A stretch of DNA of 64,000 bases from Shigella phage Ag3: the sequence record FJ373894; one strand, given 5' to 3'. Below, piece by piece: positions 1 through 64,000 of the stretch; the first letter of the stretch is position 1, and every line of letters begins with the position of its first letter. The notes beneath the pieces are model-generated. The model was not told where the DNA came from and ran no database searches. It was given only the letters and a program-made list of their open reading frames with translations. The translations under genes and the position numbers were made by a program.

Positions 1-118
1 TGAAGAACACATCGCCTGCGTTCTTCTTGCCCATGGTCAGCTCATACGGAGCGGAGTTGAACGCTTCGTCCAACTGATCCTTTTCCTGCATGAACTGAAG
101 GAAATTTGGCTTTGACAT
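1..118 (-). CDS. hypothetical protein, partial (start in window, 3' end beyond left edge)
   Basis: ATG at 116-118 on minus strand preceded by GGAGAT RBS; frame open to window edge (MSKPNFLQFMQEKDQ...). Not in ORF track because under 60 codons in window. Confidence 0.35.
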   Translation of the reverse strand, partial: MSKPNFLQFMQEKDQLDEAFNSAPYELTMGKKNAGDVFF

Positions 119-193
119 TTTGTATCTCCTGATGGAATTATGGCGGTTTCTTCTAATTAGCGAAACCAAAAGAGAGCCGAAGCTCCCCTTATC

Positions 194-529
194 TTATTTT
201 TGAACTTTGGCTACCGACATCGCCCAGAGTGGGAGGGTGTGTGAGTCCAGGGCTTCCAGCAGATATTCAATGCGCTCTGACATGATGCCTTCAGGGAAGT
301 TTACTTCTTCCGGCTCGTTATTGGCCGTCCAGCCCAGAGATAACCCTTCAGCGTGATGGATGATATAAACGAAGTCGCCTGATTCGTAGTCCTTTTCCAT
401 CAGGTCGAAGAACGCTTCCATCTCTTCGTCGGAGAAATAGTAGATGCGAGGTACAGAGCCGTCAGCAAAGTGCTCAGCGCCCTGGAAGGCAAACATGTCA
501 TCGGCTGTGAAGTTCTTGAGTTGTGTCAT
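194..529 (-). CDS. hypothetical early protein
   Basis: ORF 194..550; start moved to ATG at 529, which is preceded by the conserved GGAACTATATC initiation motif. Confidence 0.55.
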   Translation of the reverse strand: MTQLKNFTADDMFAFQGAEHFADGSVPRIYYFSDEEMEAFFDLMEKDYESGDFVYIIHHAEGLSLGWTANNEPEEVNFPEGIMSERIEYLLEALDSHTLPLWAMSVAKVQK

Positions 530-551
530 GATATAGTTCCTTCGGTTCAAA

Positions 552-827
552 TTAACGGCGGAAAGGGCGGTTTGCGTTTTCGCGGTTAGACCAATTCTTT
601 TCAGCCCGAGCGATAGCCGCTGGACTCCATTCGCGTTCCCACTCTTTGTCTACTTCAGCCTGGTTGGCAGGCTCTACCATTTCAACACCAGGGAAGTCGC
701 GTGACATGATTTCGCGCAGCTGGGCAGCTGGGGCAGTCTGGGCGTGGATCAATTCTTCGCCGTCGTAAACCTTGGCCATCAGGTATTTCTGGCCGTGGCG
801 GATATATGCGTCGAGGATAATTTTCAT
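552..827 (-). CDS. hypothetical early protein
   Basis: ORF 552..848; start at 827 after GGAACTACACC; early promoter plus stem-loop immediately upstream (876-922). Confidence 0.55.
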   Translation of the reverse strand: MKIILDAYIRHGQKYLMAKVYDGEELIHAQTAPAAQLREIMSRDFPGVEMVEPANQAEVDKEWEREWSPAAIARAEKNWSNRENANRPFRR

Positions 828-852
828 GGTGTAGTTCCTGCTTTTCAAGTTG

Positions 853-881
853 GTGTCGTACTGCTTATGGAATGAAGTATA
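853..881. repeat. 29-bp direct repeat (copy 1) of early-promoter cassette
   Basis: gtgtcgtactgcttatggaatgaagtata is identical at 853-881 and 36499-36527. Confidence 0.7.
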
Positions 882-3038: not shown

Positions 3039-5375
3039 TCAATCCTTCTTGATAACTTCGGTCAGGCCGTTTCGCAGGCCATAACGGATGTTGTGTTGGA
3101 AGTATTCCTGGAACTCCTGCTCACGCTGACTGATGACAAACAGGTTGTTCCCGCCGAACTTATGCTTCAGCATCTCAACCGATTCCTGCACCCCGCGCTC
3201 GCTCATGTTCTCAAGGATTTCGTCCAGGACAAACAGGTTACATTGCACCGATGCCTTGAGGTTAGCCACGTCGCGCAGAGCCAGTGTCACCGCCAGGTTC
3301 AAACGACTGCGCTGGCCAGTAGACAGGGAGAAGATGCTCTGCCCCTTGCGGCCTGCTGCGCTCATGGTGATCTCAAAGGTATCGTCAACAACGATGTCCA
3401 GGAACATGTTGAGGGCTTCAAGATACTCGTTGATCTTGCTATTGAGGAATGGCAAGTACAGGGCGATGATACGCGCCTTGGTCTGGTCATCCTTCAAGAA
3501 GAACAGGAGGTGCTGTAAGTCCTGGAGTTCCTCATCTGCATCTTCACGGAGTTCATACAGAGCCTCCAGTTCACCTTCCAACGCAGCGATAGAGTTCTCC
3601 AGGTCGGCGGTAGGCGTCGGCTGTACAGCCAGTTTACGCTCCAGATCGGCAATAGACGCCACGAGAGGAGCACGACGGGCTTTCAGCTCGGCGATCTTAT
3701 CATCGACGGCTTTAATCCCGCTGACGGCATTCTCTCGCGTCTGTTGCAGCGACGCAGTGATGTCTTCAAAACGAACGTTCAGCGCCTTGCGGATGTCAAG
3801 GATCTTCTGTTGGCATTCACGGTTCAGCGAATTACACTCAATCGTGGCCGCTTCATGGAACCCCTGAATGTCACGGTGCAGCTGCTTGATGTTGTCAACG
3901 ATTTCGTCGGCCTGCTTGCGCATTGCATCCAGTTCGGCATCCAACACAGCAATGTCAGCAACCAGCTTGTCGTCCTGAGCCTTGTGACCATCAATCAGGG
4001 CGGTGACATCGGCAGTGACCTTATCCAGCTGATCCAACTTCGCCTGCAGTTCCTGTATCTGAGGGTTGTACTTGCTCTCAATGCGCGCCTTGGTATCGTC
4101 AGACACCAGCTGGGTGCATGTTGGGCAAGCCCCCATATCGTGGAAGCGCTTGATGGCCGCTTGATGACCATCCATTTCTGTTTGGAAACGGATACGGAAG
4201 TTCTCACCCTGTTGGCGGCGCTGGATAGCAGCGTTCAGGGTGTCCAGGTTGGCGTTGCGTTCGGTGAGCAGGGTGTTCTTGCTTTCGGCCACCGTAAAGG
4301 CGCGGTCACGCAAGACCTGAAGATCATGCTCCGCAGTAGACACTTCGATGCGCTCATAATCATCGGCCTTTTCCTGAGCGGCATCCTTCACCGCCTGGAT
4401 CTTGGCTTCAAAGTCTTTCTTGACAGCCTCGATCTCCACCATGGATTCGTCATGAAGGCGGCTTTCCACCGTCTTCATTTCCTGAGTGGCTTCGAATTCC
4501 ACGGCAGTGAGACGGGTGCGCTCCTCATTCTGCGCGGCAATGTCAGCGTCCAGCGATACCAGGGCTTCCCGTTGCTGTACAAGGATATCGGCCGACTGCT
4601 GTTGGATAAGGGCATTGGATTGCTCTATCTGCTGCAGCTGCGTCTTCTTGTTGGTGTGGTCAACAACCTTCAACGCACATTCATTCGCGATCGTGTCCAG
4701 CTTTTCGTTCGCTTTCTTGATGGATGCCTTGACATCTTCGTTCATCAGGCTGAAGAAGCCCAAGTCCCAGATAGTCTCCACCATGGCGCGACGGTCGGCG
4801 GTGTACATCTCCGTGAACGGAATGAACTTCTCTTTGCCCAGCACCAGAGAGTTCTCAAACATCTTCTGGTCCACGCCGATGAGGTTCACGATGTACTTGT
4901 TCATGTCGGCTTTGGCTGCTTCATTATCGATCTGCAACCACTTGCCGTCCACCATCTGGTAGACTTCAACAAAGTCAGGTTTAATGCCACGGCGAACCTT
5001 CCATTCGCTACCACGGCAGGCAAACTCTACCTCACCCACACATTCCTTGCGGCTCTGTGAGTTTACCAGGCCTGCCTTCTTCTCCTTCTTGCTGTATGTG
5101 TCGTTGTACAGTACGAAGAATAGCAGCCATACCAACATCGTGGATTTACCCGCGCCGTTATCGTCAGACGTGACGAGGGTAGCCGGGTTGCGCTGGTAAT
5201 CAATCTCCATGAACTGATTACCAATGGAGCGGAAGTTCTTGGCGCGGCCTTTGCGGAAGGTCAGTTTGTGCGTAATGTTGTCACGCACTTCAAATGGGAC
5301 TTCGACCTCAACCGGAGTGTCGGCTTCCTTCAAAAGATTGCCAAATTTGGCCAGGATATCTGTGCTCTGAGTCAT
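3039..5375 (-). CDS. 46: recombination endonuclease subunit gp46 (Rad50/SbcC-like ATPase)
   Basis: Walker A NGAGKST, long coiled-coil middle, C-terminal signature and D-loop (LFVLDE); start overlaps gp47 stop as in T4. Confidence 0.9.
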   Translation of the reverse strand: MTQSTDILAKFGNLLKEADTPVEVEVPFEVRDNITHKLTFRKGRAKNFRSIGNQFMEIDYQRNPATLVTSDDNGAGKSTMLVWLLFFVLYNDTYSKKEKKAGLVNSQSRKECVGEVEFACRGSEWKVRRGIKPDFVEVYQMVDGKWLQIDNEAAKADMNKYIVNLIGVDQKMFENSLVLGKEKFIPFTEMYTADRRAMVETIWDLGFFSLMNEDVKASIKKANEKLDTIANECALKVVDHTNKKTQLQQIEQSNALIQQQSADILVQQREALVSLDADIAAQNEERTRLTAVEFEATQEMKTVESRLHDESMVEIEAVKKDFEAKIQAVKDAAQEKADDYERIEVSTAEHDLQVLRDRAFTVAESKNTLLTERNANLDTLNAAIQRRQQGENFRIRFQTEMDGHQAAIKRFHDMGACPTCTQLVSDDTKARIESKYNPQIQELQAKLDQLDKVTADVTALIDGHKAQDDKLVADIAVLDAELDAMRKQADEIVDNIKQLHRDIQGFHEAATIECNSLNRECQQKILDIRKALNVRFEDITASLQQTRENAVSGIKAVDDKIAELKARRAPLVASIADLERKLAVQPTPTADLENSIAALEGELEALYELREDADEELQDLQHLLFFLKDDQTKARIIALYLPFLNSKINEYLEALNMFLDIVVDDTFEITMSAAGRKGQSIFSLSTGQRSRLNLAVTLALRDVANLKASVQCNLFVLDEILENMSERGVQESVEMLKHKFGGNNLFVISQREQEFQEYFQHNIRYGLRNGLTEVIKKD

Positions 5376-5376: not shown

Positions 5377-6492
5377 TTATGCGTCCAGTTTGTTCAGGCG
5401 TTGTTGGGCAGCATTGTAGAAGTGCTCTGCCAGTTTACAGACGTTGTCAGGGCGCTGGATGTTGTTCCCGGCGCGGATATCCTTCTTCAGGACTTCCACT
5501 GCATCGGTCGCCACCATCTCTTCAGTGACCTCAACCTTCTCAGCCGCCACGGTGATAGTCCGGTCGATGAAGTTGTAGTCAATGCACTTGCAGCGCTTCA
5601 TGGCATCACAGAACTTTTCATAATGCTTAGCATTGTCGCGGTTCTGTACGATTACCTTAACGATCTGTCCTTCAATACCCAAGCCTGTGTTCAGCCATTC
5701 CGGGTCGATCCAGTTACCCTCATCGTCTGAGGACAACTTGGTGTAGTCATACTCCACATAGCGGAACAACGTCTGGTGCTCACTGTTGGGGATGAATACC
5801 TCTCCGCCGCGCATGTCGTCCACATAGAAGCCACGGTTGGTGCCGTCTTTGTAGTCTTCCCAGTTCAGGTGATACGGAGTCCCAATATATTGAATGTTAC
5901 CTTCCATCGAACGGGTATGGAAATGTCCCGTGTCGACCCTGGTAAACTTGGAAAGCAGAGCAACGTCGATCTGACCGTGATCACAAGTAGAAGACTGGTA
6001 CATTTTGAACCCTGCCAGCTCCAGATGCGCAAAACAGTACTCGGCGTCTGTATCTTGTATCGCTTTAATAGACGCATCATAGTTCTCCTTGTTGATCCAA
6101 GGCAGCAGCAGAGTCTTGACACCCTCGATCAACACTTCGGTCGGTTCGCTGTAGTAGCAGTACACATCTGGGTCGAGTTCGTTCAGGTAGGATGGCCAGT
6201 TGATGCGGTTGGTCTCTTCCAGGGTGATGTCGTGGTTGCCAACAATGCCATTCCACTTGATGCCAGCCGCTTTCAGCGCTGGAGTTAATTCATCCTTCAG
6301 CCAGTCTTTGTCGCGCCCGTACATGAATTTTCGGACGTCAAACGTGTCACCCAATTGCCAGACCTCATGGATGTCCGAGTCGACAAGCTCGGGGATGAAA
6401 TAGTTGATGAGGTAGTTCTTGATGAAGTCGCGAACGTAACGGGAACCATTACGGCTCCCGATATGCAGATCGCCTATTTTAGCAATCGCCAT
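5377..6492 (-). CDS. 47: recombination endonuclease subunit gp47 (Mre11/SbcD-like)
   Basis: Phosphoesterase motifs GDLHIG, GDTFDVRK, GNHD matching T4 gp47. Confidence 0.9.
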   Translation of the reverse strand: MAIAKIGDLHIGSRNGSRYVRDFIKNYLINYFIPELVDSDIHEVWQLGDTFDVRKFMYGRDKDWLKDELTPALKAAGIKWNGIVGNHDITLEETNRINWPSYLNELDPDVYCYYSEPTEVLIEGVKTLLLPWINKENYDASIKAIQDTDAEYCFAHLELAGFKMYQSSTCDHGQIDVALLSKFTRVDTGHFHTRSMEGNIQYIGTPYHLNWEDYKDGTNRGFYVDDMRGGEVFIPNSEHQTLFRYVEYDYTKLSSDDEGNWIDPEWLNTGLGIEGQIVKVIVQNRDNAKHYEKFCDAMKRCKCIDYNFIDRTITVAAEKVEVTEEMVATDAVEVLKKDIRAGNNIQRPDNVCKLAEHFYNAAQQRLNKLDA

Positions 6493-7270
6493 TATTCTTT
6501 TTCTCCCGTTCTTCTAATCTTTGTTTGAGGGCTTCCCAATCTGGTTCCATCGCACAGATATCATCTTCCAGATTGAATTGGGTTTTGCCGAAGTCCTGAT
6601 CTGAATTGTCTTCGGCCTGCGCTGTTACCGTATTCTTAGCCTGCGCCATGTATTGAAGTATGCCTTTCGCAATCTTTTTATTCGATTCTGCGAGACGAGC
6701 CGCCTCCACCTTCTCTCGCTCCTTCTGCCTTTGAGCGTCCTTTTTGTTCTCAAAGTTGCCGATACGTTCACGGAAGTCCATGCCAATCCCTGTCGCATCA
6801 ACAAAGATCTCTTGTTGGAAGTCAGGGTCGTCTGCCAGGCCTGCGAACCCACCCGCCTCTTCAAATGAGCGCAATTTGATGTACGTATGTTCTTCTTCGA
6901 TATTCAGTTTACGAGCAAATGAGCGATCTGCACACATGGTCACCCAAGAGAAGAAGTTGATCTTCCCTTTCTTTCCAATGTGGTCGACGTCAAAGGTGTG
7001 GAGGTAACGCAGGATGTTGACGATTGCTTCAGAGACCATGTCTTCACGGAAGGGATAGTCGCGATAGTTGTAGCGGGTGCTCATCTTGGTGATGATGCGC
7101 TGGACCTGTAGAGCAACATAGTTGGGGATCTTTGGAAGCCTGGTGCCTTCAGCCAGAGCCTTCTTACGAGCAGGGATCCAATCACGAAGGATACTGATGA
7201 CACGCTCGTTATCTTCGTCCGTGAAATATTTGACGACATTCTCGCCACGATCAACATAATTCATACCCAT
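6479..7270 (-). CDS. 55: late-transcription sigma factor gp55-like
   Basis: Position upstream of gp47 as in T4; sigma-region-2-like pattern alignable to T4 gp55; GAGGG RBS. Confidence 0.7.
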   Translation of the reverse strand: MGMNYVDRGENVVKYFTDEDNERVISILRDWIPARKKALAEGTRLPKIPNYVALQVQRIITKMSTRYNYRDYPFREDMVSEAIVNILRYLHTFDVDHIGKKGKINFFSWVTMCADRSFARKLNIEEEHTYIKLRSFEEAGGFAGLADDPDFQQEIFVDATGIGMDFRERIGNFENKKDAQRQKEREKVEAARLAESNKKIAKGILQYMAQAKNTVTAQAEDNSDQDFGKTQFNLEDDICAMEPDWEALKQRLEEREKKNNGDC

Positions 7271-7281: not shown

Positions 7282-7809
7282 TCAGATACCGATAAATTCA
7301 TCAAAAGATCCAACAACCTTCTTCACTGAGATCTTGTCATTCTCAATCAGGAAGTTGCTGTCGTTTTTGGCTGCTGTGGCCCAGTCATCGGCAAGTTCGT
7401 TACCTTCGTGCCCCGCATGACCCTTAACCCATTTTAGTTCAACTTCACAAATTGAACAAACGAGATCATAGATTCTGAACAGATCTTTGATGAGTTCAAC
7501 GTTCTTGTCTGGGAAACCCTGATACTCCCACTTCGCTCGCCATTCGGTGACGCTCTTGATGGTGTATTGACTGTCAGACCAAATTGTTGCCTTTGGTATT
7601 CTGCGCTCACCCTTTCCTGAGAATGCCCACAGCAGCTTCAATGCGTTGGTCACACCCAACAACTCGGCGATGTTGTTGGTGGACGGGGGAGGTAGGTGAC
7701 CGAAGAACACCTTCCATTGCATACCCGATATTGGCCTGATGACAAATGCCCATCCTGCGGCCTGGTTGGTCTTCGGGTTAGAACCCCCGTCAGAATAAAT
7801 TTCTATCAT
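7282..7809 (-). CDS. rnhA: ribonuclease HI (RnhA-type)
   Basis: Motifs IEIYSDGGS, NNIAEL, IWSDSQY, KWVKGHAGHEGNELADDWA match E. coli RNase HI; start moved to ATG at 7809 (ORF track extends to 7905). Confidence 0.85.
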   Translation of the reverse strand: MIEIYSDGGSNPKTNQAAGWAFVIRPISGMQWKVFFGHLPPPSTNNIAELLGVTNALKLLWAFSGKGERRIPKATIWSDSQYTIKSVTEWRAKWEYQGFPDKNVELIKDLFRIYDLVCSICEVELKWVKGHAGHEGNELADDWATAAKNDSNFLIENDKISVKKVVGSFDEFIGI

Positions 7810-7810
7810 G

Positions 7811-7819
7811 ATATAAATA
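7811..7819 (+). promoter_or_regulatory. late-promoter-like box TATAAATAT
   Basis: About 36 nt upstream of plus-strand ATG 7855. Confidence 0.45.
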
Positions 7820-7854
7820 TCCCAAACTGGTTTTATAGAAAGAGGAATGAAACT

Positions 7855-50673: not shown

Positions 50674-50682
50674 TATTTAGTC
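50674..50682 (-). promoter_or_regulatory. late promoter motif CGACTAAATACC (gp14)
   Basis: About 25 nt upstream of gp14 ATG. Confidence 0.5.
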
Positions 50683-50709
50683 GAAGTTTATTCTTTTGAG
50701 GAATAACTC

Positions 50710-50922: not shown

Positions 50923-50925
50923 AAG

Positions 50926-50947
50926 AAGGGCGGGGGAACCCGCCTTT
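50926..50947. terminator. bidirectional terminator between plus ORF 50710..50922 and gp13
   Basis: GGGCGGG-ggaa-CCCGCC with T-runs on both sides. Confidence 0.6.
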
Positions 50948-50949
50948 CC

Positions 50950-55300: not shown

Positions 55301-57151
55301 GGTGACGTCAGCGCCACTTGCATTCTTCACGCTGACCAGCTTGTAGCCGTCGTGGTTGTTCAGCTGTACGCTGGCCGCCGAAGTGAACGTCACAGTCTCG
55401 GTGACTTCGGTAACAGTCTTGGTCTTGATCGTCGCTGTGGTGCGGACCATCAGTGCCAACAGGTTGATAGACTGGTTGGCGTACCCCGCACCCAGGGAAA
55501 TCTGCAGTGCTGAACCGACCGGAGTACCAGTCAGGGACAGTCCCGAAGAGATATCAAACTGAGCTGCAGTGCCGTCTGCCTTCGCCGCTGAGTACAAAGA
55601 GAATTCAGGGCTGAAGCTGTAACCCAGAGGAGCAGAGATAGAGCCTGCGCCTGCCGCGTTCAACGTGATCTTGTTTGACCGCAGGACGGTGTAGTTGATG
55701 TCGATGGTCCCCGTAGGAGCCAGCGTCTTCACACCAAATACAGGCAGAGGGAAGATCAGGTCAATTGCTGAACTCTGGCTGAACTGATTAGACTCCAGTT
55801 CGCAAGAGAACATTGTTGTACCGCTTTCTTCGTATGCAACTTTGGTGACAGTACCCATGTCCCCAGTGACAACGAGGTCGCGCATATACAGACGGAATTC
55901 CGCTCCAGAACGTTCTGCTGAAATCAGGAGGGCAGTGGCCTGGACAGCGCTGGATGCGTTCAGGAACTTGTAACGGATTGTGCGAGAGACAACCGGAACC
56001 CCTTTGGAGTTCTTGGACACCAGATAGTTGCCAGTCGCAACAGCCACAGGGTTGTTGTTCAGGGTATCGGTGTCACGGGCTTTATCAATAGTGACCAGCT
56101 CTTCGCCGAGGTTTTCGATACGACGGCCACGAACGTAGGAGATCCCTGGCTTCATGACCGCCACGAATTTGCTTGCGTCACCACCTTCGGCCGGAGTGTA
56201 CACGCCGCCGTTGTTGTTCTCTTTCAGATGTTCACGCAGGTCGATCTGGTGAGTAGAGACGTTGTAATCCCCGTTGGTCTCATAAGTGCGCTGCGCCATA
56301 CTGTCTTCGAGGATGTTGTAGGTGGACTGGGTCACCATGGACTGAATGCGCCCGTCTTTGACTTTCGCCAGTTCAACGAAGTCGGCCACTTCTTCATCAT
56401 AACCGTAGCGAGACAACACGAGGTCGATGCGCAGGCGATGCGCACCAGGGGCTTTGGAGTTCGGAGTACCCTGAGCATTGGAGAACAGACTTTCGTCTTC
56501 GGTTTCGGTGACGATGGTCTCTGTCACTTTGAATCCAACGCGGTGTGAGGTGGAGTTGGATGCGTTGTCGACGATCAGGGTAGCAGCCTCAACATCCAGG
56601 AACATGCCGCGGACGAAGTAAACGCCTTTGGTCATGCGCGCAACAATAGAGCCACCGACAGTAGCAGCCACACCATAGCCGACACGAATGAAATTATCGT
56701 TCACGTCGTAGGTGTTGAAGTACAGGTTGTCACCAGCTTCGAAACCGTCTGAACTACCACTCTCAGTCATCTCTAAGATGGCGTACATTGTATCCGGCTC
56801 AGCCAGGTAACGTTCCAGAGACAGGACGCGCGCTTTCGCATTGTTGTCCTTACCCAGAACATAGAGTTCGGAGATACCTTCCAGATCGGTGAACTCGCTA
56901 CCACCAGCCAGAGTGAACTTCATGGACACTGCGGTGTTGGTGATTGTCAGGCCGCCGGGGATAACCATCGAACCGTCTTTGAACAGATGGTTCCCGAGTT
57001 TCTCCAGCTGATCCTGGAAGATGGTCTGCATCTGGTTCAGTTCACGCGTCTGAACTTTGATAGGAGCCGGACGGAACAGGATGCGTGAAAAACGCTTCTC
57101 TGGATTCCAATCATCCCAGTATGGGCGGCGGTTGAGGTTCATTTCTTGCAT
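52313..57151 (-). CDS. large tail fibre/tail-spike protein (about 1612 aa)
   Basis: Start at 57151 (GGAG RBS; track extends to 57289); late motif CTAAATATC upstream; Thr/Ser/Gly/Asn-rich repetitive beta-type sequence. Confidence 0.7.
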   Translation of the reverse strand: MQEMNLNRRPYWDDWNPEKRFSRILFRPAPIKVQTRELNQMQTIFQDQLEKLGNHLFKDGSMVIPGGLTITNTAVSMKFTLAGGSEFTDLEGISELYVLGKDNNAKARVLSLERYLAEPDTMYAILEMTESGSSDGFEAGDNLYFNTYDVNDNFIRVGYGVAATVGGSIVARMTKGVYFVRGMFLDVEAATLIVDNASNSTSHRVGFKVTETIVTETEDESLFSNAQGTPNSKAPGAHRLRIDLVLSRYGYDEEVADFVELAKVKDGRIQSMVTQSTYNILEDSMAQRTYETNGDYNVSTHQIDLREHLKENNNGGVYTPAEGGDASKFVAVMKPGISYVRGRRIENLGEELVTIDKARDTDTLNNNPVAVATGNYLVSKNSKGVPVVSRTIRYKFLNASSAVQATALLISAERSGAEFRLYMRDLVVTGDMGTVTKVAYEESGTTMFSCELESNQFSQSSAIDLIFPLPVFGVKTLAPTGTIDINYTVLRSNKITLNAAGAGSISAPLGYSFSPEFSLYSAAKADGTAAQFDISSGLSLTGTPVGSALQISLGAGYANQSINLLALMVRTTATIKTKTVTEVTETVTFTSAASVQLNNHDGYKLVSVKNASGADVTSNFTLDGGQRDAAYYRSNLLSGTGAISGTFTVVYQYFAHSSGDFFTADSYSSIDYPDIPNYVSSSSGTVYGLADCLDFRPKITSGASDTDMVRPNTAIVLDAEYYLPRIDAVYLADNGVFNVARGVSSNNLASPAIPDNGMRLYELMIPPYTANIDDIQIRTIDNRRYTMRDIGKLETRISNVEYYTSLSQLESSAMTQQVFDPITGNPRFKNGIAADPFKDFRLIDDLSADWVGSIDTDNGRLRPFVQQNAVDLTPVGWNNVQDGMVVCNYTREISVRQDYATTTINVNPYAVFNWEGFLKLNPTTDYWFENYYVAPRVINETINTRGAIKEGSVYGTWRTVSVSERVWEPHGAGGVWWGYRYRTTVSTRDVTTYTYTDKTTTTLTGEQIVETQVIPYMRKTNINFEATGLRPFTRVYPFFSGRDVSAYCTPNGGSLGGALNTDANGNIKGVFAVPQNETVKFNTGDNVFRLTDSPVDSKSADDTLTNAEAVHKSFGKKQGIQKTYVNTRVLGYTATKSTENKTETVEVAKWKDPIAQSFMVATNIGGEYIEGIEVFFSTKSRDIPITLEIREMSNGLPATTVVTRKTLNPSEVSVSTDSSVPTMFKFDYPVYLQAQTEFAIVLLANTQDYNAYIAEMGKKNLLTNEYIAKQPYTGVFFTSSNGTTWTPNQTADMKFRVYRCNFSAGSNIVTFDAKVGPKIRPLGLNTVKCVNGSSTVTVYAPGHGLTAGESVTLSGLTGGCGFTPEQLNAQHTVTDATFTTFKFVLSSNADSDGQIGGEEASFLGNYLVDMFYASVTNSALEGSVLKLEYRYRDATSNSFSDWAEFESDTDVSLSTEGIYRQVGDFQVRATMTRNESNVYTAPMIDGDDFTIIFNTYGVDPFEDVFSYVTKDIGFDNPCTTLKQYFGAMLPSQSSMTVQVKLLRAGQEMDDVAWETVTPTSPLVNDGSTFFEYEYDKTVDSTNPFVGLKIRLLVRGNRTAPPSFKDFRLIALA

Positions 57152-57249: not shown

Positions 57250-59034
57250 TCAAGCGGAAGCATTCCATTGACCAGCATTGATCACCCATGTGCTCGTTAC
57301 TTTTGAATACACCATTTTCACGAGATTCATTTTCGTGGTGGCGGTGTTGGCACCAGTCACATCGACAGGGACACCCGCTATGCTCAATGAAGCAATGTTT
57401 GAACCTCTCAGTAAAAACGTCAGCTCCATACCATCATATGGCGTACCGGTAAATGCGATGTTGGAACCAGAAGAAACGTTTCTTCGATAGCACCCATAAC
57501 CGCTGTTTATGTCGACAGAGTCAGTTGTGAGCTGTAATGGCAATTTTCCACGACTTAATTTACATGCCGTTACAACGCCGAGATCATCAATGCCTCGACT
57601 TGCGCCCCAACGTGCGATGTTGACTATGTGGCCAGTCACACCAGCGTCTTGCGCACCACCAATGTCGAAGAAACCTCCAGCCCTTGTTCCCCATATCGGC
57701 TCATCAATTAAGCTGTTGGTGGAGTTGGTTATACTATACCCATGCGCGAGGGTTCCTTGGCTTGGGGAAGAGTGTGTACAATCTCGGAATGTGGCATCTT
57801 GAGAACCACTGATGCGGACATCAGAGATACTATTGTTCTCATAATACATTCCATACACCTTAGTTCCCTTGGCCTGATCCAAGAATCCATATTTCGTGGT
57901 ATTCTGGCTGAATCCGTTAACAAAACAGACTGCTTCTGTAGGGAATGTTGTGGTATAATCCCAAGAAGTCCCGCCGTCGGTGGAGTGTCTTACGATAATA
58001 CCATAATCCGGCATATCCACTTCCGGAGCACCAGAATAACCATCAAACCCTGTTATAACGATAGCATTGGCTCCGTTCTGTACTATTAACCGACTCGAAC
58101 CAGCCCCACCACCGATAACCTCACAACCGTCTATCTTCAATCCATAACACAAAGTCCCTATCTCTATCCCGATATTATTAATGGCTGTGCCCATGTCCAC
58201 CCACATCATATCTAGATGACCATGGTTCCTCCAATATTTGGCTCTGAAAGCGACGCAACCCGTTTTACCATTCAACGATATCCTGATATTGTGTAATTTG
58301 CAGTTTCTCACTGCATTCCCACCAGAACGAGAAGGATCAATCGTGAGTACACCAACGTTGTTTTCACCAGCCAAGAATAATGCGCCGGAATGTGCATAAA
58401 TTTCAGAGTTAGGATAAAACGCCAACGCCTGGCCAGTTACCGTATAGTTGCCAGGAAGAAACTGGAATGTCCCACCCTGGGATAATTTAGTTTGTATAAG
58501 AGACTGAGACATCGAAGGGTCGATAACAGTTAGACGATAAAACCCAGAGTATAACTCATCTCTTAATGCATCTGGATCCAATTTCACCCAGTTAGAACTT
58601 GACAATCCACCAGTATTGGCAATGGTGCCACCAGCGTTTACAGATTTGGGTAAAGTCCCACCCCAACGGTAAAGACTTGTACCATCAGAAACGACTTCAT
58701 TTCTTACACGTATCGTGAACCCCGAATCGAAGTTTTCGACCAAAGTTACAAATTCCTTCCGAAGTACTGCAAGAACCCCCAGGTCTACGGTGCCCGTATT
58801 GTGTACGAGAATGCCGTCTGCCATGCTGGTGATGGTAGCGCCAGCAGGCAGGTTAGAAGGCAGAGCATAGGAGCGCTGGGGCACCTTGTCGTAGATCACC
58901 TTATAACCAGTCAGGGTGGATCCTGGTTTAGCATACAGAACCTCGGACTTCTTGCACCCGAACTTGCGTGCAATAGAGTCCTTGTTGGTCTCTTTCGAGA
59001 CCGTACCTTTCGGCTGTGAAAATTGCGGATTCAT
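57250..59034 (-). CDS. tail-spike protein (MNPQFSQPKG N-terminal anchor type)
   Basis: Shares N-terminus with 61698..63719 product; Gly/Asn/Ser-rich beta-helix-like body; late motif CAACTAAATAAGCC upstream. Confidence 0.7.
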   Translation of the reverse strand: MNPQFSQPKGTVSKETNKDSIARKFGCKKSEVLYAKPGSTLTGYKVIYDKVPQRSYALPSNLPAGATITSMADGILVHNTGTVDLGVLAVLRKEFVTLVENFDSGFTIRVRNEVVSDGTSLYRWGGTLPKSVNAGGTIANTGGLSSSNWVKLDPDALRDELYSGFYRLTVIDPSMSQSLIQTKLSQGGTFQFLPGNYTVTGQALAFYPNSEIYAHSGALFLAGENNVGVLTIDPSRSGGNAVRNCKLHNIRISLNGKTGCVAFRAKYWRNHGHLDMMWVDMGTAINNIGIEIGTLCYGLKIDGCEVIGGGAGSSRLIVQNGANAIVITGFDGYSGAPEVDMPDYGIIVRHSTDGGTSWDYTTTFPTEAVCFVNGFSQNTTKYGFLDQAKGTKVYGMYYENNSISDVRISGSQDATFRDCTHSSPSQGTLAHGYSITNSTNSLIDEPIWGTRAGGFFDIGGAQDAGVTGHIVNIARWGASRGIDDLGVVTACKLSRGKLPLQLTTDSVDINSGYGCYRRNVSSGSNIAFTGTPYDGMELTFLLRGSNIASLSIAGVPVDVTGANTATTKMNLVKMVYSKVTSTWVINAGQWNASA

Positions 59035-59235: not shown

Positions 59236-61512
59236 TTAGTTCTGAATCAACACGGCATTGTACGATAGTGGAAAATCACCAGAAGTTCCTGAACGGGTAA
59301 ACTGGTAGTTAGACCCAGAAACACCAGCAGCGACAGACGCCAACTGACTCGCTGAAGTGGCTGTCACCGCAATGCTACGGCCAGATACCAGGCTAACTAT
59401 ACCGACAGCGGCAGTAACGGACCCAACGCCATTCGGGATAGTAACTAACCCGACTTGCTTGTCCGGGTGTGTCGGGGAGTCATAATGGTAGAACTTACAC
59501 GAAGCTCCACCCACAAAAACCTGCCCGTAAAAGTAACAATTTTTTGTTGTTACGCTAGAGCCACCAGTTTGGTTATCTAAAACAGTAATTCCCAGTGGCT
59601 TATTTGCCAGGAATGTACAATTTTCCGCAGTTACTCCAACTACAGAGTTCACTAAAAGGTCTCCCTGCTGTGCTGCATCAATGTCATTGTTCTGGAAAAG
59701 GCAATTCACAAGCTTTGGTCTTGCCGGTACTAGGCCACCTTCTTTAATAATCTCAAGACCAAAGTAACGGCTGTCAGAGAATTTAACACCTGTAGCCATA
59801 AACTCATTACAAGAACCCTGAATTACCACACAAGATTTATTACCGCTGCGGTTGCTGCTGTAATACCCGTTTGTTAATTGTAAATACTGAGTATTAGTCG
59901 CTCTCAGTGCAATACCGGTGGCAAGGTCTGACATGACGTCAGTCAGCCATATCCACCGGCAGTTAACTATCTCTATAGCTGCGGTGCCTAAAGTGTTATC
60001 ACCACAGGCGTAGAATCTATCGCCTAGCAGCTCAATACCCTCTATGTTCGTGCTCACATGAGAGCTGTTTTCGGTTATGAACAGCCCGCATTTACACCCA
60101 TTGAATGTATTCTGGTTAAATCGAGTGTTAATCTGTCCCCCACCAAGTACAACACCGTATGTACTGGCAGCGAATCTGTTGAACCTGAAATCAAGCTCTC
60201 CAGCCCCATAACCGCCGGGTGCATCTACGCAATATTTAAGGAAGGCAAAAGAACAATTTTCAACTGTAACCAAAGGCGCTTCGATTCGTATACCAGTTGA
60301 TGTGGATTCTACGGTAACTGACTGAATCGTAAAGTCCGCAAGTCTTGCAAATTCATGAGTAACCTTGAAACATGTATCTCCGTCATTTTCAGGGCAGAAT
60401 GTCGTGTTGAGCTTGCCCGCTCCGATAAGATTGGCGGGGCTATCAATAACAATATCTTTTACGAAATATTTCTCCGTTGCCGCCGGGACAAATACTGTAT
60501 TAGACGCTGTAGAGGCGAGCTTAGCTGCGGCCAATGCGGCATTGATGGCCTGTGACCATGTATTAGACCCAGTTTTATAGTCGGCGGCATTGAAATAGAC
60601 GGCATGGCGGGCGTTAATTATAGCCTGCTCTACAGTAACACCAGAAGAAGTCCCGACTAACGTAGCCCCGGAGCTTGCCGCTAAATCGTTTCTTAAATTT
60701 GGGTCCGTTTGTGGAGTCCAGTCGGCAACAGCAACAGGGTTGGTACTTGCTGCGATTACATGCGGCAATGCACCACTCCAGGAATACCAGGTCTTACTTA
60801 CCGGGTCATATACCACTTTGTCACGGTCATTAATTGTTAAAGTGCCGCCTACGCTAAAAGTTAAACCAGAGTCAGCGTAGCCATTTTCAATAGCCCAGTT
60901 GAGTTTTAACTTGATCAAATCATCACCAACAGAGTCTAAACTCTGTTGCACCGTTTGCCCCGACGTAGTTCCAACAAGGCTTGCCCCATTATCAGAAGCC
61001 AACGCCAGGTAATTTTGTTTTACGGACATTTCTGACACGACCCAAACTCCAGCCGCAGGCGAACCTGTGAGGAAACTCACAACTCCTGTTGTGCTGTTGT
61101 AGCTGTAGTTGACACCAGGAACCTGGAACTTCCCGTCAACATACAGAGACTGTACGCCGTAGGTTGTGAAGTCTGGCGTGAAAGTAGTCTCGTTACCGTC
61201 CGCCTGAAACTTGTAGATTCTGATCCCGTTTTCATAATCTTCTGGGGACAGGATCTTGTCAAACAGACAGTACACTACATCATCAGCCTCTAGTGCTCGA
61301 CCGAGGTTGACTGTGTTGCCATCGATTTCATAGTTGTCGACAGGAACCTGAACACCACCATTGATAGTGATGAAGCCCGTAACGGGATAGAACGGGAGGG
61401 AGATAAACGTCTCTCCACCCGTTGCGGTATAAGTGTATGGAATCTGGTGTGGTGCTGTTACAACCGCTCCAAAGATGCTCTCGACGTTTCTGGTCATTTG
61501 AAGATACCCCAT
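59236..61512 (-). CDS. tail-spike protein (distinct N-terminal domain)
   Basis: 758 aa; Gly/Asn/Thr-rich beta-helix-like body; late motif CGCTAAATACCCC upstream. Confidence 0.7.
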   Translation of the reverse strand: MGYLQMTRNVESIFGAVVTAPHQIPYTYTATGGETFISLPFYPVTGFITINGGVQVPVDNYEIDGNTVNLGRALEADDVVYCLFDKILSPEDYENGIRIYKFQADGNETTFTPDFTTYGVQSLYVDGKFQVPGVNYSYNSTTGVVSFLTGSPAAGVWVVSEMSVKQNYLALASDNGASLVGTTSGQTVQQSLDSVGDDLIKLKLNWAIENGYADSGLTFSVGGTLTINDRDKVVYDPVSKTWYSWSGALPHVIAASTNPVAVADWTPQTDPNLRNDLAASSGATLVGTSSGVTVEQAIINARHAVYFNAADYKTGSNTWSQAINAALAAAKLASTASNTVFVPAATEKYFVKDIVIDSPANLIGAGKLNTTFCPENDGDTCFKVTHEFARLADFTIQSVTVESTSTGIRIEAPLVTVENCSFAFLKYCVDAPGGYGAGELDFRFNRFAASTYGVVLGGGQINTRFNQNTFNGCKCGLFITENSSHVSTNIEGIELLGDRFYACGDNTLGTAAIEIVNCRWIWLTDVMSDLATGIALRATNTQYLQLTNGYYSSNRSGNKSCVVIQGSCNEFMATGVKFSDSRYFGLEIIKEGGLVPARPKLVNCLFQNNDIDAAQQGDLLVNSVVGVTAENCTFLANKPLGITVLDNQTGGSSVTTKNCYFYGQVFVGGASCKFYHYDSPTHPDKQVGLVTIPNGVGSVTAAVGIVSLVSGRSIAVTATSASQLASVAAGVSGSNYQFTRSGTSGDFPLSYNAVLIQN

Positions 61513-61529
61513 AGAGGATTTGCCAATAT

Positions 61530-61540
61530 GGGGTATTTAG
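61530..61540 (-). promoter_or_regulatory. late promoter motif CGCTAAATACCCC (tail spike)
   Basis: About 20 nt upstream of ATG 61512; same 18-mer as the uvsW copy. Confidence 0.5.
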
Positions 61541-61697
61541 CGAATGGATAAGAAGTCGCAGGACTACCCACTTGTTTTATCTGATTACGAATTTACCCAG
61601 GCTGATATCGTTAATCAGCGTAGCCACTATGTTTGCCAGTTGGGTGGTTGTTAACGTGTTCACATCACCACGCAATTGCTGGCTACAACAATGATTG

Positions 61698-63719
61698 TTA
61701 GCTTAGATTTAGACTAAACCCACCATTTGACTTGCTTATCATACCACGAACAGTTTTGTTGCCTCCACCGCTGTATTCGTCATATTGCATTTTGACATTT
61801 ACAGCGATGTTGGCGTCAATTGAATCCCATCCAGCAAAGTTCAGGAACACATTTCCGCTAGTGTCTACTGATATTGTTGGCGTGGCTGCTGTTCCTTTTG
61901 TGAACGTACTTTGCACTGAACCTTCCATTGTGCTTGCTGCTGGAGTTGTACCCATCACTAATGTTCCCTGCAATCGCCCATGCCATGCGCTAGAAACACC
62001 TGAAACCGGGGAGTTGGCTACAACATCAACCGTCCACAAACTTACGTTTCGGTACGTACTCACAGTGCCAATTTTAAAATTCCTGGAATCTCCAGCGGCT
62101 TTAATGAACAGCATTGAACCCGTAGCGCATTTACTTGAATCAGGCGCTGCACCTGCAGATGCAAAATCAGAGAATGTGCAATTATCAAATTTTACTTTGC
62201 TGTAATCGGTAGCTGTTAACTTAGCTTCTGGTGCATTAACATTTTCGAATTTAACTCCGCCATAGTTCGCCACTGCGCCTGTAAGCTGATTGGTATTGAC
62301 ATATACATCACCACCATTCAGCTTTCGGACCACCAGGTCACGACAGATAAATCCATTAATAGAATCGCCTGACGTCCAGTTATCGTTGGTGTTGAAGTTA
62401 AAGAACCATGCATGGTTACCAGAGTCTCCGCCGCCAAGTTCTATGCGTCCGGTGATCACAATATTTGAATAACCATAGCCACGCGGGTTATTATCTGCTA
62501 CAGACTCGTCAATCAGCTTTGTTGTGCCAATAACACTTCCCCAATTCCCCCCGACGACATCATAATTGATGGTTATGTTACGCATCAGCCCGGCAATCAT
62601 CGTCTCTGTTATGGTGCTGTCCCAACCCCAATCCAGCCATATTGGTGCTACGCGGTACGGAAGCGTGTAACGCCCTGTGCTACGATATTTGTAATTGACT
62701 GTAAGATTAGATATTTGATTATCCATGTTACCGTTATAGAAATACATTTTGATTGGCGTACCCTGTTGAGTATCAATGGCATCAACAGTTATCTGGCCAC
62801 CACCACAATTGTTCGTCAGAAAGAAATCACGACGGCAACCATTATTAACTGTATGGATGTCAACTACACCAACATTACCAAGGAGATGTGGATAGCGAGT
62901 GTCATTGTTCACACTGCGAGCAAAGAGATTTTTTACATTAGTACATTCGTAGCCTTGATAGCACTTGTTAGTCTTGCCAATAAATGTGAAATTATTGCAT
63001 CCATTCAGGCGCAGTGGGGTTAGTCCGCGTTTGTCATCACCGACATACTCAAGGGTGGAAGAAGCATCCACTTCAAACACCAGATTGGTGATATTCGTCA
63101 GGTCGAACACGCGCGTCAGGTCAAATGCACCGGAGTAAAGCAGGGTGTCCCTGATAACCAGTCCGCGAATTTCAAGGCAGTCCATATTACTTAAAGTAAA
63201 GATGGTACTAAGACCGCCACTACCAGGACCAAAGTTCACAACCTGGTCAAAAATAATTTCAACACTTTTTAGGTTGTTAGATGTGATGTAAGACTGCAAA
63301 GATTGCAGTGTACCGAATCGGGAGAAGTAAAGGACACGTTTGTTTACAACTGAATCAAGAGCATCTTTTACTGTAGATGATTCGTATCCGACAAGACTTG
63401 CCTTTTCACCCGTCAGCAGTTCAGAACCCAGCGTTTTGCTTTCAACGCTAACCCATGCTGAAGATGATACACCACCAGTTGATTGTGGTGTTGAGTTTTT
63501 GTTCACAGTTTTGGGCAAAGACCCACCCCAGGTATAACACTGGGCACCATTGATATGCCACACGGCGTCGGTTGCAGTCGTCACAGTAGCACCGTCTTCA
63601 AAACTACCTTCGACCAAATTAAGACCTAAATCCGACAAAGCCCGCCGCCACAATTCACGCGGGTTTTTGTTGATTTCTTTGGCTGTTGAACCTTTCGGCT
63701 GATTGAATTGCGGATTCAT
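61698..63719 (-). CDS. tail-spike protein (MNPQFNQPKG N-terminal anchor type)
   Basis: 673 aa; first about 20 codons about 75% nucleotide-identical to the 57250..59034 gene. Confidence 0.7.
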   Translation of the reverse strand: MNPQFNQPKGSTAKEINKNPRELWRRALSDLGLNLVEGSFEDGATVTTATDAVWHINGAQCYTWGGSLPKTVNKNSTPQSTGGVSSSAWVSVESKTLGSELLTGEKASLVGYESSTVKDALDSVVNKRVLYFSRFGTLQSLQSYITSNNLKSVEIIFDQVVNFGPGSGGLSTIFTLSNMDCLEIRGLVIRDTLLYSGAFDLTRVFDLTNITNLVFEVDASSTLEYVGDDKRGLTPLRLNGCNNFTFIGKTNKCYQGYECTNVKNLFARSVNNDTRYPHLLGNVGVVDIHTVNNGCRRDFFLTNNCGGGQITVDAIDTQQGTPIKMYFYNGNMDNQISNLTVNYKYRSTGRYTLPYRVAPIWLDWGWDSTITETMIAGLMRNITINYDVVGGNWGSVIGTTKLIDESVADNNPRGYGYSNIVITGRIELGGGDSGNHAWFFNFNTNDNWTSGDSINGFICRDLVVRKLNGGDVYVNTNQLTGAVANYGGVKFENVNAPEAKLTATDYSKVKFDNCTFSDFASAGAAPDSSKCATGSMLFIKAAGDSRNFKIGTVSTYRNVSLWTVDVVANSPVSGVSSAWHGRLQGTLVMGTTPAASTMEGSVQSTFTKGTAATPTISVDTSGNVFLNFAGWDSIDANIAVNVKMQYDEYSGGGNKTVRGMISKSNGGFSLNLS

Positions 63720-63765
63720 GTGAATCTCCTGTTGTTCTCATGAAGCCCCGAAGGGGCTTTATCAA

Positions 63766-64000
63766 TTAGAAGTTGCGAGACATCTCGAACCATATACCAG
63801 CTCGGCGCTGGAGAGTCATGATAGCCAAGCCACCGGAAGCCGTGGCGTTCACCCCACCTTTGAGGCGCATCACAGTACTATTGTGAGTGAGGACAACCCC
63901 ATCACCCATACGCAGGTTGATAATATCACCCGATTGTGCACCAGTGAAGTCGGTGATGGTTCCTGAAGCGATATACAGATTCGGACCAAACACCGCAGAT
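63766..64000 (-). CDS. C-terminal part of a protein running off the right edge (probable structural)
   Basis: Minus frame open from window end to stop at 63766; track ORF starts at first in-window Met (63993). Confidence 0.4.
   Translation of the reverse strand, partial: SAVFGPNLYIASGTITDFTGAQSGDIINLRMGDGVVLTHNSTVMRLKGGVNATASGGLAIMTLQRRAGIWFEMSRNF

What the first reader, a model, noticed from the sequence alone, without database searches (positions are those of the whole stretch)
1..64000. T4-type gene content with non-T4 synteny: likely Ackermannviridae-like phage
Structural genes gp13 to gp23 are collinear with T4, but early and late genes share one strand, the clamp operon is separated from gp46/47/55 by about 20 kb of accessory genes, uvsW/uvsY lie between the capsid and clamp modules, and tail spikes replace long tail fibres. 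GC is near 50% by eye.
Basis: inference. Interest (0 to 1): 0.4.

Follow-up and report, generated by a model that had tools for sequence, protein, structure and literature searches.

The report
Known Shigella phage Ag3 genome segment
The window is bases 64001-128000 of the published Shigella phage Ag3, type member of the genus Agtrevirus (Ackermannviridae), so its T4-like genes in a non-T4 arrangement are real but have been described since 2011-2012.

Summary

**Identity.** Every ORF I compared matches the published ORF table of Shigella phage PhiSboM-AG3 (Ag3) with a constant offset of 64000. ORF lengths match too, as do the two product masses I compared (60,775 and 177,204 Da). Nearest database relatives are Agtrevirus phages (MK-13, ChubbyThor, Gloob, SKML-39, P46FS4) at 95-98% nucleotide identity. 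No Straboviridae record appeared among the 25 best hits listed for each third.

**Gene layout.**
- gp13 to gp23 are collinear with T4.
- 75 of 79 ORFs lie on one strand.
- The 45-44-62-regA block sits 19.8 kb from the 55-47-46 block; in T4 the two blocks are contiguous.
- uvsW and uvsY lie between gp23 and gp45.
- Three complete tail spike genes and one cut one follow the VriC-like gene. No T4 long-fibre homologue is in the window.
- GC is 50.3%.
- Order and strand are identical to Salmonella phage Vi01 for 47 of 47 shared ORFs, so the layout is family-wide.

**One correction.** uvsW downstream of gene 23 is also the T4 arrangement.

**Side observations.**
- Ag3 orf149 is an in-frame Prs::NAMPT fusion made by an 872-bp deletion.
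- A 159-aa mini-intein sits in the terminase P-loop; it is already annotated in relatives.
- CTAAATA, not TATAAATA, is the enriched motif on the coding strand.

The parts
3039..5375 (-). gp46-like SbcC/Rad50-type recombination endonuclease subunit
   Evidence: Pfam SMC_N and AAA_23. tblastn to T4 gene 46, E=6e-19.
5377..6492 (-). gp47-like SbcD/Mre11-type subunit
   Evidence: PHROG 100, E=1.5e-106. tblastn to T4 gene 47, E=3e-28.
6479..7270 (-). gp55-like late sigma factor (true start probably near 7220)
   Evidence: PHROG 234 'late sigma transcription factor', E=6.8e-52. Called gp55 (Orf122) in the Ag3 paper.
7282..7905 (-). RNase H
   Evidence: Pfam RNase_H, E=4.6e-25. Ag3 orf123.
8619..10337 (-). 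ATP-dependent DNA helicase
   Evidence: Pfam Helicase_C_2, ResIII and DEAD. Ag3 orf125.
19361..21004 (-). Ag3 orf149: in-frame fusion of Prs residues 1-222 with NAMPT residues 227-554, made by an 872-bp deletion
   Evidence: Pfam Pribosyltran_N and Pribosyltran at the N-terminus, NAPRTase at the C-terminus. Junction and 8-bp repeat TCAACGAA. blastp to the MK-13 Prs and NAMPT proteins. NCBIfam scores fall below the cut-offs for both halves. No other phage record spans the junction.
24902..26122 (-). Protein with the helical domain of 5-hmdU DNA kinases (candidate thymidine-hypermodification factor)
   Evidence: Pfam PF18723 HMUDK_hel, E=8.5e-82. Its Vi01 orthologue is Vi01_130c.
26192..27061 (-). 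MazG-like nucleotide pyrophosphatase
   Evidence: PHROG 2144, E=1.2e-131.
27078..29738 (-). Clamp module. In transcription order: gp45 29070-29738, gp44 27999-29042, gp62 27572-27994, regA 27078-27542
   Evidence: Pfam Gp44_lid, AAA and Phage_clamp_A. PHROG 223. tblastn to T4 genes 45, 44, 62 and regA. Ag3 orf162-165.
30447..31955 (-). UvsW helicase
   Evidence: Pfam UvsW_N, ResIII and Helicase_C. tblastn to T4 uvsW, E=4e-78. Ag3 orf168.
31984..32730 (-). PD-(D/E)XK exonuclease
   Evidence: PHROG 298. Pfam PDDEXK_1.
32730..33182 (-). UvsY recombination mediator
   Evidence: Pfam UvsY, E=2e-11.
33225..33725 (-). gp3-like tail completion protein
   Evidence: tblastn to T4 gene 3, E=2e-8. Ag3 orf171.
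38566..51720 (-). T4-collinear head, neck, tail and packaging module, in transcription order gp13, 14, 15, 16, 17, 18, 19, 20, (67/68), 21, 22, 23
   Evidence: Pfam Gp23, T4_CASP, Peptidase_S77, Portal_T4, Phage_T4_gp19, sheath domains, Terminase_6N/6C, DNA_Packaging, T4-gp15_tss and T4_neck-protein. PHROG 211 for gp13. Monotonic tblastn hits to T4.
47817..48293 (-). 159-aa mini-intein inside the terminase large subunit, inserted in the Walker A P-loop (ARQSGK|C...SHN|TTVV)
   Evidence: Alignment with T4 gp17. Weak Pfam Intein_splicing hit. Conserved in at least 280 phage records and annotated as an intein in Salmonella phages Maynard and Marshall.
52313..57151 (-). VriC-like 1612-aa virion protein (DUF4815)
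   Evidence: Pfam DUF4815, E=2.4e-60. The computed mass of 177.20 kDa equals Ag3 orf206 at 177,204 Da, a virion band identified by mass spectrometry.
57250..59034 (-). Tail spike protein 1 (shared with MK-13 and ChubbyThor)
   Evidence: Pfam Tail_spike_N. 96-97% nucleotide identity to MK-13 and ChubbyThor.
59236..61512 (-). Tail spike protein 2. The N-terminal anchor is conserved. The receptor-binding part, 59064-60697, has no match at 80% or more in the five close relatives
   Evidence: Pfam Tail_spike_N and Beta_helix.. 69.7% aa identity to a protein of the 43-kb Salmonella phage KKP 3828.
61698..63719 (-). Tail spike protein 3 (shared with Shigella phage Gloob)
   Evidence: Pfam Tail_spike_N. 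96% nucleotide identity to Gloob.
63766..64000 (-). C-terminal end of tail spike protein 4 (Ag3 orf213, 1019 aa), cut by the window end
   Evidence: Ag3 Table S1. 98.4% nucleotide identity to P46FS4.
50674..50680 (-). One of 11 CTAAATA motifs, all on the coding strand; candidate late promoters. The other ten are at 1679, 2268, 31981, 35163, 40874, 41230, 46397, 57186, 59078 and 61534
   Evidence: 11 found against 3.4 expected; 0 of 100 shuffles reach 11. Most sit a few tens of bases upstream of gene starts: gp14, gp18, gp22, uvsW, VriC, TSP1, TSP2 and orf174.

Best explanation
The window is bases 64001-128000 of the genome of Shigella boydii phage PhiSboM-AG3 (Ag3). Ag3 is a virulent contractile-tailed phage and the exemplar of the genus Agtrevirus (Ackermannviridae, Aglimvirinae).

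**Shown here.**
- Ag3 shares a core of replication, recombination, late-transcription, head, neck, tail and packaging genes with T4.
- These genes are arranged in the family-typical, almost single-strand layout, interleaved with family-specific genes.

**Inferred.**
- Temporal control does not rest on strand segregation as in T4. It rests on promoter class: a gp55-type late sigma factor with the gp45 clamp, acting at CTAAATA-type sites directly upstream of late genes.
- Host recognition uses a cluster of exchangeable tail spikes next to the VriC-like gene rather than T4-type long fibres.
For: **Identity with Ag3.**
- The published Ag3 ORF table gives the same ORFs at window coordinate + 64000 for all 60-plus ORFs I compared. 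Examples: orf149 83361-85004, 547 aa, 60,775 Da; orf185 102566-103888; orf206 116313-121151, 177,204 Da; orf207, orf210, orf212, orf213. Computed masses agree.
- Ag3 is missing from the phage collection. This explains why the best hits reach only 95-98%.

**Classification.**
- The relatives are classified as Agtrevirus.
- Order and strand match Vi01 perfectly for 47 of 47 shared ORFs.

**Relation to T4.**
- T4 homology and collinearity of gp13-gp23, and of the 45-44-62-regA and 55-47-46 blocks.

**Family-typical features.**
- Tail_spike_N domains in three ORFs.
- CTAAATA enriched on the coding strand only.

**Literature.**
- Conserved gene order among ViI, CBA120, AG3 and LIMEstone1, with no well-defined early/middle/late regions.
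- A 'more scattered' organisation than Tevenviruses, and the branched tail spike complex as the morphological hallmark.
Against: - I could not align the window directly to the GenBank record of Ag3, because it is not in the collection. Identity rests on the coordinates, lengths and masses in the published table.
- The promoter role of CTAAATA is inferred from position and strand bias only. The Ag3 paper searched with TATAAATA allowing one mismatch.
- Absence of long tail fibre genes is shown only for this 64-kb window.
Confidence: 0.97

Rival explanations
1. The window comes from a Straboviridae (T4-like) phage with rearranged modules.
For: 19 of 79 ORFs hit T4 by tblastn, and gp13-gp23 are collinear with T4. 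NCBI taxonomy now places Ackermannviridae in the order Pantevenvirales; that T4's family Straboviridae belongs to the same order is from my own knowledge and was not looked up here.
Against: - None of the records listed is a Straboviridae phage; every relative whose taxonomy I retrieved is Ackermannviridae.
- Protein identity to T4 is only 20-44%, against 95-98% nucleotide identity to Agtrevirus.
- There are no homologues of T4 genes 34-38 in the window.
- TATAAATA occurs once, which is the chance level.
Confidence: 0.01
2. The window is a different, undescribed Agtrevirus species closely related to Ag3, not Ag3 itself.
For: No record in the collection reaches 99-100% identity. Identity times coverage to the nearest records (about 0.97 x 0.9) falls below the 95% species line (the threshold is from my own knowledge of ICTV practice).
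Against: - The ORF coordinates (offset exactly 64000), the lengths and the two masses compared match the Ag3 table, including the idiosyncratic 547-aa fusion ORF. That fusion is seen in none of the 63 related records.
- The tail spike similarity pattern (tsp1 like ChubbyThor, tsp4 like P46FS4) matches what is published for Ag3.
Confidence: 0.02

Closest known systems
Shigella phage PhiSboM-AG3 (Ag3), Agtrevirus AG3; Anany et al. 2011, PMC3121705
   Same: ORF coordinates (offset 64000), lengths, the two masses compared, strands and annotated functions all agree.
   Different: Nothing detectable. The paper does not comment on two things. orf149 is a Prs::NAMPT fusion; the paper calls it a putative NAMPT. 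The terminase carries an intein; the paper has no mention of 'intein'.
Other Agtrevirus phages (MK-13, ChubbyThor, Gloob, SKML-39, P46FS4)
   Same: 95-98% nucleotide identity and the same gene order. Only 2.6 kb of the 64 kb lacks a match at 80% or more in the five relatives.
   Different: - They have separate Prs and NAMPT genes.
- ChubbyThor has extra homing endonuclease genes (an HNH gene, a GIY-YIG gene between gp19 and gp18, and a NUMOD3 gene) that are absent here.
- Their tail spike receptor-binding domains differ.
Salmonella phage Vi01 (ViI), Kuttervirus, Ackermannviridae
   Same: Identical order and strand for 47 of 47 shared ORFs in window 1-39 kb. One collinear match from gp23 to VriC. 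It has the same roughly 19-kb separation of gp55 from regA and the same terminase intein.
   Different: About 77% nucleotide identity. It has no Prs/NAMPT pair at this position. Its tail spikes differ.
Escherichia phage T4, Straboviridae
   Same: gp13-gp23 are collinear, and uvsW lies downstream of gene 23 in the same orientation. The local orders 45-44-62-regA and 55-47-46 are kept.
   Different: - In T4 the late genes are on the strand opposite to the early genes, and the two replication blocks are contiguous.
- T4 has long tail fibres (genes 34-38), the TATAAATA late promoter and no intein in gp17.
- Only 19 of the 79 window ORFs hit T4 by tblastn.

Membership tests
Agtrevirus / Ackermannviridae | High nucleotide identity to classified members. 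The thresholds (genus about 70% or more, species about 95% over the genome) are ICTV practice recalled from my own knowledge. | tested here: met
   95-98% identity over 80-100% of each third of the window to MK-13, ChubbyThor, Gloob, SKML-39 and P46FS4, all classified as Agtrevirus.
Agtrevirus / Ackermannviridae | Identity with the exemplar isolate Ag3 | tested here: met
   The ORF table of PMC3121705 matches at offset 64000, including lengths and the two product masses compared. Direct alignment was not possible because the record is absent.
Agtrevirus / Ackermannviridae | Cluster of several tail spike genes with the conserved N-terminal anchor domain (branched tail spike complex, the family's morphological hallmark) | tested here: met
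   Three complete ORFs carry Pfam Tail_spike_N. A fourth is cut at the window end. All lie next to the VriC-like gene.
Agtrevirus / Ackermannviridae | Family-typical gene order | tested here: met
   47 of 47 shared ORFs are in the same order and on the same strand as in Vi01. The literature states that gene order is conserved.
Agtrevirus / Ackermannviridae | Thymidine replaced by 5-hmdU-derived hypermodified bases, with the genes for it | tested here: inconclusive
   One protein has the HMUDK_hel domain and a MazG-like pyrophosphatase is present. However, the Vi01 orthologue is not one of the two ViI kinases that were tested. The other pathway genes named for ViI (gp67, gp226, gp243, gp247) have accession numbers outside the run of Vi01 genes that matches this window.
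Agtrevirus / Ackermannviridae | Virion with star-like tail spike structures at the baseplate | not testable with these tools
   This needs electron microscopy. It is reported for the family.
Straboviridae (T4-like) | Closest relatives and synteny within a Straboviridae genus | tested here: not met
   No Straboviridae record appears among those listed, and protein identity to T4 is only 20-44%.
Straboviridae (T4-like) | Long tail fibre genes (T4 34-38), and late genes on the strand opposite to early genes | tested here: not met
   No tblastn hit to T4 150809-160200. 75 of 79 ORFs lie on one strand. This holds for the window only.
Straboviridae (T4-like) | TATAAATA late promoters | tested here: not met
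   One occurrence, on the non-coding strand, at the chance level. CTAAATA is enriched instead.
NARP1 (Adps + Namat NAD+ reconstitution operon) | Two complete genes, a Prs-family gene followed by a NAMPT-family gene | tested here: not met
   In Ag3 a single 547-aa ORF joins Prs 1-222 to NAMPT 227-554. Both halves score below the NCBIfam cut-offs and cover only model positions 28-228 of 309 and 210-461 of 465. The relatives keep two overlapping genes in the NARP1 order.
Intein (terminase large subunit, P-loop site) | Insertion relative to intein-free homologues, starting with Cys/Ser, ending in His-Asn, followed by Cys/Ser/Thr | tested here: met
   A 159-aa insert lies between GK and TTVV of the Walker A motif, relative to T4 gp17. 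It starts with C, ends with HN, and the next residue is T.
Intein (terminase large subunit, P-loop site) | Match to an intein profile at the curated threshold | tested here: inconclusive
   Pfam Intein_splicing scores 26.4 bits against a cut-off of 35.8. NCBIfam gives no hit. The orthologous insert is annotated as an intein in phages Maynard and Marshall.
Intein (terminase large subunit, P-loop site) | Protein splicing | not testable with these tools
   This needs the mass of the mature terminase.

The most novel reading that the evidence does not exclude
The single 547-aa Prs::NAMPT ORF of Ag3 might not be a dead deletion product. It could be a working one-polypeptide enzyme that still rebuilds NAD+, or makes another nucleotide, from a truncated Adps-like half and a truncated Namat-like half. 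The more likely version is that the deletion is real and makes Ag3 a natural NARP1-null member of a genus whose close relatives keep the operon.
Probability: 0.04. Interest if true: 0.4.

Novelty: already known. Interest (0 to 1): 0.07.

Why it matters
For the scan, this finding can be closed.

The side observations have only modest practical value.
- If the Prs::NAMPT deletion is real, Ag3 is a ready-made natural control for testing the NAD+ reconstitution operon against NAD+-depleting defences in the Agtrevirus background.
- The CTAAATA motif gives a sharper late-promoter search pattern for this family than the T4 consensus used in the original paper.

Tried and rejected
- **T4 late promoter TATAAATA.** One match, at the chance level. 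Rejected as the late promoter here.
- **Sigma-70 promoter and terminator scans of 27-47 kb.** Counts equal the shuffled expectation. Uninformative.
- **tRNA scan.** None found. The Ag3 tRNAs lie outside the window.
- **Rfam.** No family reaches threshold.
- **The 59 Vibrio phage hits.** These are only a 40-nt conserved stretch in the terminase gene.
- **Direct retrieval of the Ag3 record** under NC_013693 and FJ373894, accession numbers recalled from memory. Neither is in the collection.
- **NCBIfam** on the terminase, the VriC-like protein, the 672-aa and 406-aa proteins and two orphan ORFs. Only the fusion ORF gave hits.
- **Pfam** on eight small orphan ORFs. Nothing found.
- **ChubbyThor annotations** 'RegB' for the 1573-2187 homologue and 'DNA-directed RNA polymerase' for the 22768-24786 homologue. 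Not supported: the first hits T4 vs.1, not regB, and the second has no Pfam or NCBIfam hit.
- because identity was settled without them: the large protein-database searches, structure prediction and the metagenome scans.
Full report
**What the window is.** Megablast of the three thirds of the window against 50,697 phage records returns, among the best hits listed, only Ackermannviridae. The best are Shigella phages MK-13, ChubbyThor and Gloob and Salmonella phages SKML-39 and P46FS4, at 95-98% identity over 80-100% of each query. Their records are classified as Ackermannviridae; Aglimvirinae; Agtrevirus. No record reaches 99%.

The type phage of the genus, Shigella phage Ag3, is not in the collection under the two accession numbers I recalled. 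The supplementary ORF table of the Ag3 paper (PMC3121705) settles the matter. Every ORF I compared, more than 60, lies at window coordinate + 64000 with the same length and strand. Two products have matching masses:
- orf149 (83361-85004, 547 aa, 60,775 Da) equals window 19361-21004 (60.77 kDa).
- orf206 (116313-121151, 1612 aa, 177,204 Da) equals window 52313-57151 (177.20 kDa).

The same holds for orf185, orf207, orf210, orf212, orf213 and the run orf123-orf201. The window is therefore Ag3 bases 64001-128000. The published remark that Ag3 tsp1 resembles ChubbyThor and tsp4 resembles P46FS4 is reproduced here.

**Check of the observation.** All parts hold.
- **Late module.** It reads gp13, 14, 15, 16, 17, 18, 19, 20, (67/68-like), 21, 22, 23 on the minus strand from 51720 down to 38566. 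Evidence is Pfam and PHROGs. tblastn hits fall in strictly increasing T4 coordinates, which is the T4 order.
- **Strand use.** Of 79 ORFs, 75 are on the minus strand. The Ag3 table lists the same few plus-strand ORFs.
- **Replication blocks.** gp45, gp44, gp62 and regA occupy 29738-27078. gp55, gp47 and gp46 occupy 7270-3039. They are 19.8 kb apart. In T4 the order 55, 47, 46, 45, 44, 62, regA is contiguous within 10.2 kb on one strand, with the late genes on the other strand. Each block keeps its internal T4 order; the blocks are transposed and separated.
- **Recombination genes.** uvsW (30447-31955), a PD-(D/E)XK exonuclease, uvsY (32730-33182) and a gp3 homologue (33225-33725) lie between gp23 and gp45.
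- **Tail spikes.** Three ORFs carry the Tail_spike_N domain, and a fourth is cut by the window end. No ORF hits T4 genes 34-38.
- **GC.** 50.3%.

**One correction.** In T4, uvsW also lies a few kilobases downstream of gene 23 in the same orientation, with uvsY next to it. This item is therefore conserved neighbourhood, not evidence of non-T4 synteny.

**What fills the 20 kb.** 'Accessory' is broadly fair, but the stretch also holds core-type and lysis functions:
- RNase H and a helicase.
- An HU-like DNA-binding protein.
- A spanin (13061-13378, PHROG 'Rz-like spanin') beside the 13375-14154 ORF, whose ChubbyThor homologue is annotated as i-spanin.
- An acyl carrier protein and a vWFA protein.
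- The Prs::NAMPT ORF.
- A protein with the helical domain of 5-hmdU DNA kinases (PF18723, E=8.5e-82).
- A MazG-like pyrophosphatase.

The last two fit the thymidine hypermodification known for the family. However, the Vi01 orthologue of the HMUDK_hel protein is not one of the two ViI kinases that were assayed, so its role is not established.

**The layout is family-wide and published.** Against Salmonella phage Vi01 (Kuttervirus), 47 of the 59 ORFs in window 1-39 kb have homologues. All are in the same order and on the same strand (Spearman 1.0, no breaks). gp55 and regA are about 19 kb apart there too. From gp23 to the VriC-like gene, Vi01, Klebsiella and Dickeya relatives each match as one collinear place. 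Two papers already describe this:
- A 2024 review states that Ackermannviridae have a more scattered organisation than Tevenviruses, and that the branched tail spike complex is their hallmark.

**How it most likely works.**
- *Shown:* the window encodes gp55 and gp45 homologues. The Ag3 paper reports a gp33 homologue elsewhere in the genome.
- *Shown:* the T4 late consensus TATAAATA occurs once, at the chance level. CTAAATA occurs 11 times, always on the coding strand, against 3.4 expected, and 0 of 100 shuffles reach that count. Most sites, often extended to CTAAATAcc, lie a few tens of bases upstream of the starts of gp14, gp18, gp22, uvsW, the VriC-like gene, TSP1, TSP2 and orf174.
- *Inferred:* late genes are switched on by gp55-RNA polymerase at these sites, so temporal classes can be interleaved on one strand. 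I recall a similar consensus from the Viunalikevirus genus proposal, but could not find it in the library. Treat that as a lead only.
- *Inferred from family knowledge:* adsorption uses the four tail spikes as a branched complex.

The spikes are mosaic:
- TSP1 matches MK-13 and ChubbyThor.
- TSP3 matches Gloob.
- The end of TSP4 matches P46FS4.
- The receptor-binding part of TSP2 has no close match in the five relatives. It is 69.7% identical to a protein of the 43-kb Salmonella phage KKP 3828.

**Side finding 1: a fused NAD+ gene.**
- MK-13, ChubbyThor and SKML-39 have two overlapping genes, Prs-family (284 aa) then NAMPT-family (554 aa). This is the architecture of the NARP1 anti-defence operon, Adps then Namat.
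- Ag3 lacks 872 bp between two copies of TCAACGAA. The loss joins Prs 1-222 in frame to NAMPT 227-554.
- Each half covers only part of its family model and scores below the curated cut-off.
- None of the 63 phage records with these genes spans the junction.
- The Ag3 paper lists the ORF simply as a putative NAMPT. The Agtrevirus comparison notes only presence or absence of the two genes.
- Most likely this is a loss-of-function deletion, either natural, from laboratory passage or from assembly. I cannot tell which.

**Side finding 2: an intein in the terminase.**
- Alignment with T4 gp17 shows a 159-aa insert exactly inside the Walker A motif: ARQSGK | CVKGD...FLSHN | TTVVA, against T4 SRQLGK | TTVVA. 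It has the canonical Cys1, terminal His-Asn and +1 Thr. In window coordinates it is 47817-48293.
- The insert is conserved at 72-100% identity in at least 280 records across the family. It is annotated as an intein in Salmonella phages Maynard and Marshall, and as a 'precursor' in Klebsiella phage Magnus.
- It is known in relatives; it is simply not noted for Ag3.

**Verdict.** The object is an already published genome, so novelty is nil and interest is low. The side findings are small and concern annotation of a known phage.

Noticed in passing
window 19361-21004 (junction at 20340-20347): Ag3 orf149 is an in-frame fusion of Prs residues 1-222 and NAMPT residues 227-554. It was created by an 872-bp deletion between 8-bp direct repeats (TCAACGAA). 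Close relatives keep two separate overlapping genes with the architecture of the NARP1 NAD+ reconstitution operon, and none of 63 related records shares the junction. This is probably a null allele. It is not remarked on in the Ag3 paper or the Agtrevirus comparison that I read.
   Followed up: yes
window 47817-48293 (inside the terminase large subunit, 46407-48626): A 159-aa mini-intein is inserted in the Walker A P-loop of the terminase (GK|C...HN|T). It is conserved across at least 280 Ackermannviridae records and annotated as an intein in phages Maynard and Marshall. The Ag3 paper does not mention it.
   Followed up: yes
window minus strand at 1679, 2268, 31981, 35163, 40874, 41230, 46397, 50674, 57186, 59078 and 61534: CTAAATA (often CTAAATAcc) occurs 11 times, all on the coding strand (3.4 expected; 0 of 100 shuffles reach 11), mostly just upstream of late gene starts. 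The T4 consensus TATAAATA is at the chance level. These are candidate family-specific late promoters.
   Followed up: partly
window 24902-26122: A 406-aa protein matches Pfam PF18723 (helical domain of 5-hmdU DNA kinases) at E=8.5e-82. Its Vi01 orthologue (Vi01_130c) is not one of the two ViI kinases tested in the thymidine hypermodification papers, so this may be an uncharacterised member of that pathway. The neighbouring 672-aa protein (22768-24786) has no Pfam or NCBIfam hit.
   Followed up: partly
window 59064-60697 (receptor-binding part of TSP2): This is the only large stretch without a match at 80% or more in five close Agtrevirus relatives. The protein is 69.7% identical over 95% of its length to a protein of the 43-kb Salmonella phage KKP 3828. 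That indicates exchange of receptor-binding domains between unrelated phage groups.
   Followed up: partly
window 34407-35850: PHROG 289 ('GTP-binding domain', 500-position profile) is matched in two pieces: 35383-35850 (profile 7-146; Pfam YAcAr/SLOG) and 34407-35150 (profile 258-500; DUF7217). A 55-aa ORF and a CTAAATA site lie between them. The same split exists in MK-13 and Vi01.
   Followed up: no
window 1573-2187: This is a homologue of T4 vs.1 (E=2.6e-15) with a sub-threshold Pfam SLT lytic transglycosylase hit and a CTAAATA site 81 nt upstream. The Ag3 paper reports that PSI-BLAST of genes next to its candidate holins found no lysin homologue, so this is a weak candidate. ChubbyThor annotates the homologue as RegB, which the T4 comparison does not support.
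   Followed up: no
window 15838-16122 and 38246-38485: Two small ORFs (94 and 79 aa; Ag3 orf139 and orf184) have no PHROG, Pfam or NCBIfam match and no Vi01 homologue. The first lies in a segment (15761-16190) that is absent from the five close relatives.
   Followed up: partly
locus L006 (ChubbyThor) 1487-2959 and 8892-9599; locus L004 14110-14940: ChubbyThor carries HNH, GIY-YIG and NUMOD3 homing endonuclease genes near the capsid gene, between the tail tube and sheath genes, and after the spanins. The Ag3 window has none at these positions.
   Followed up: no
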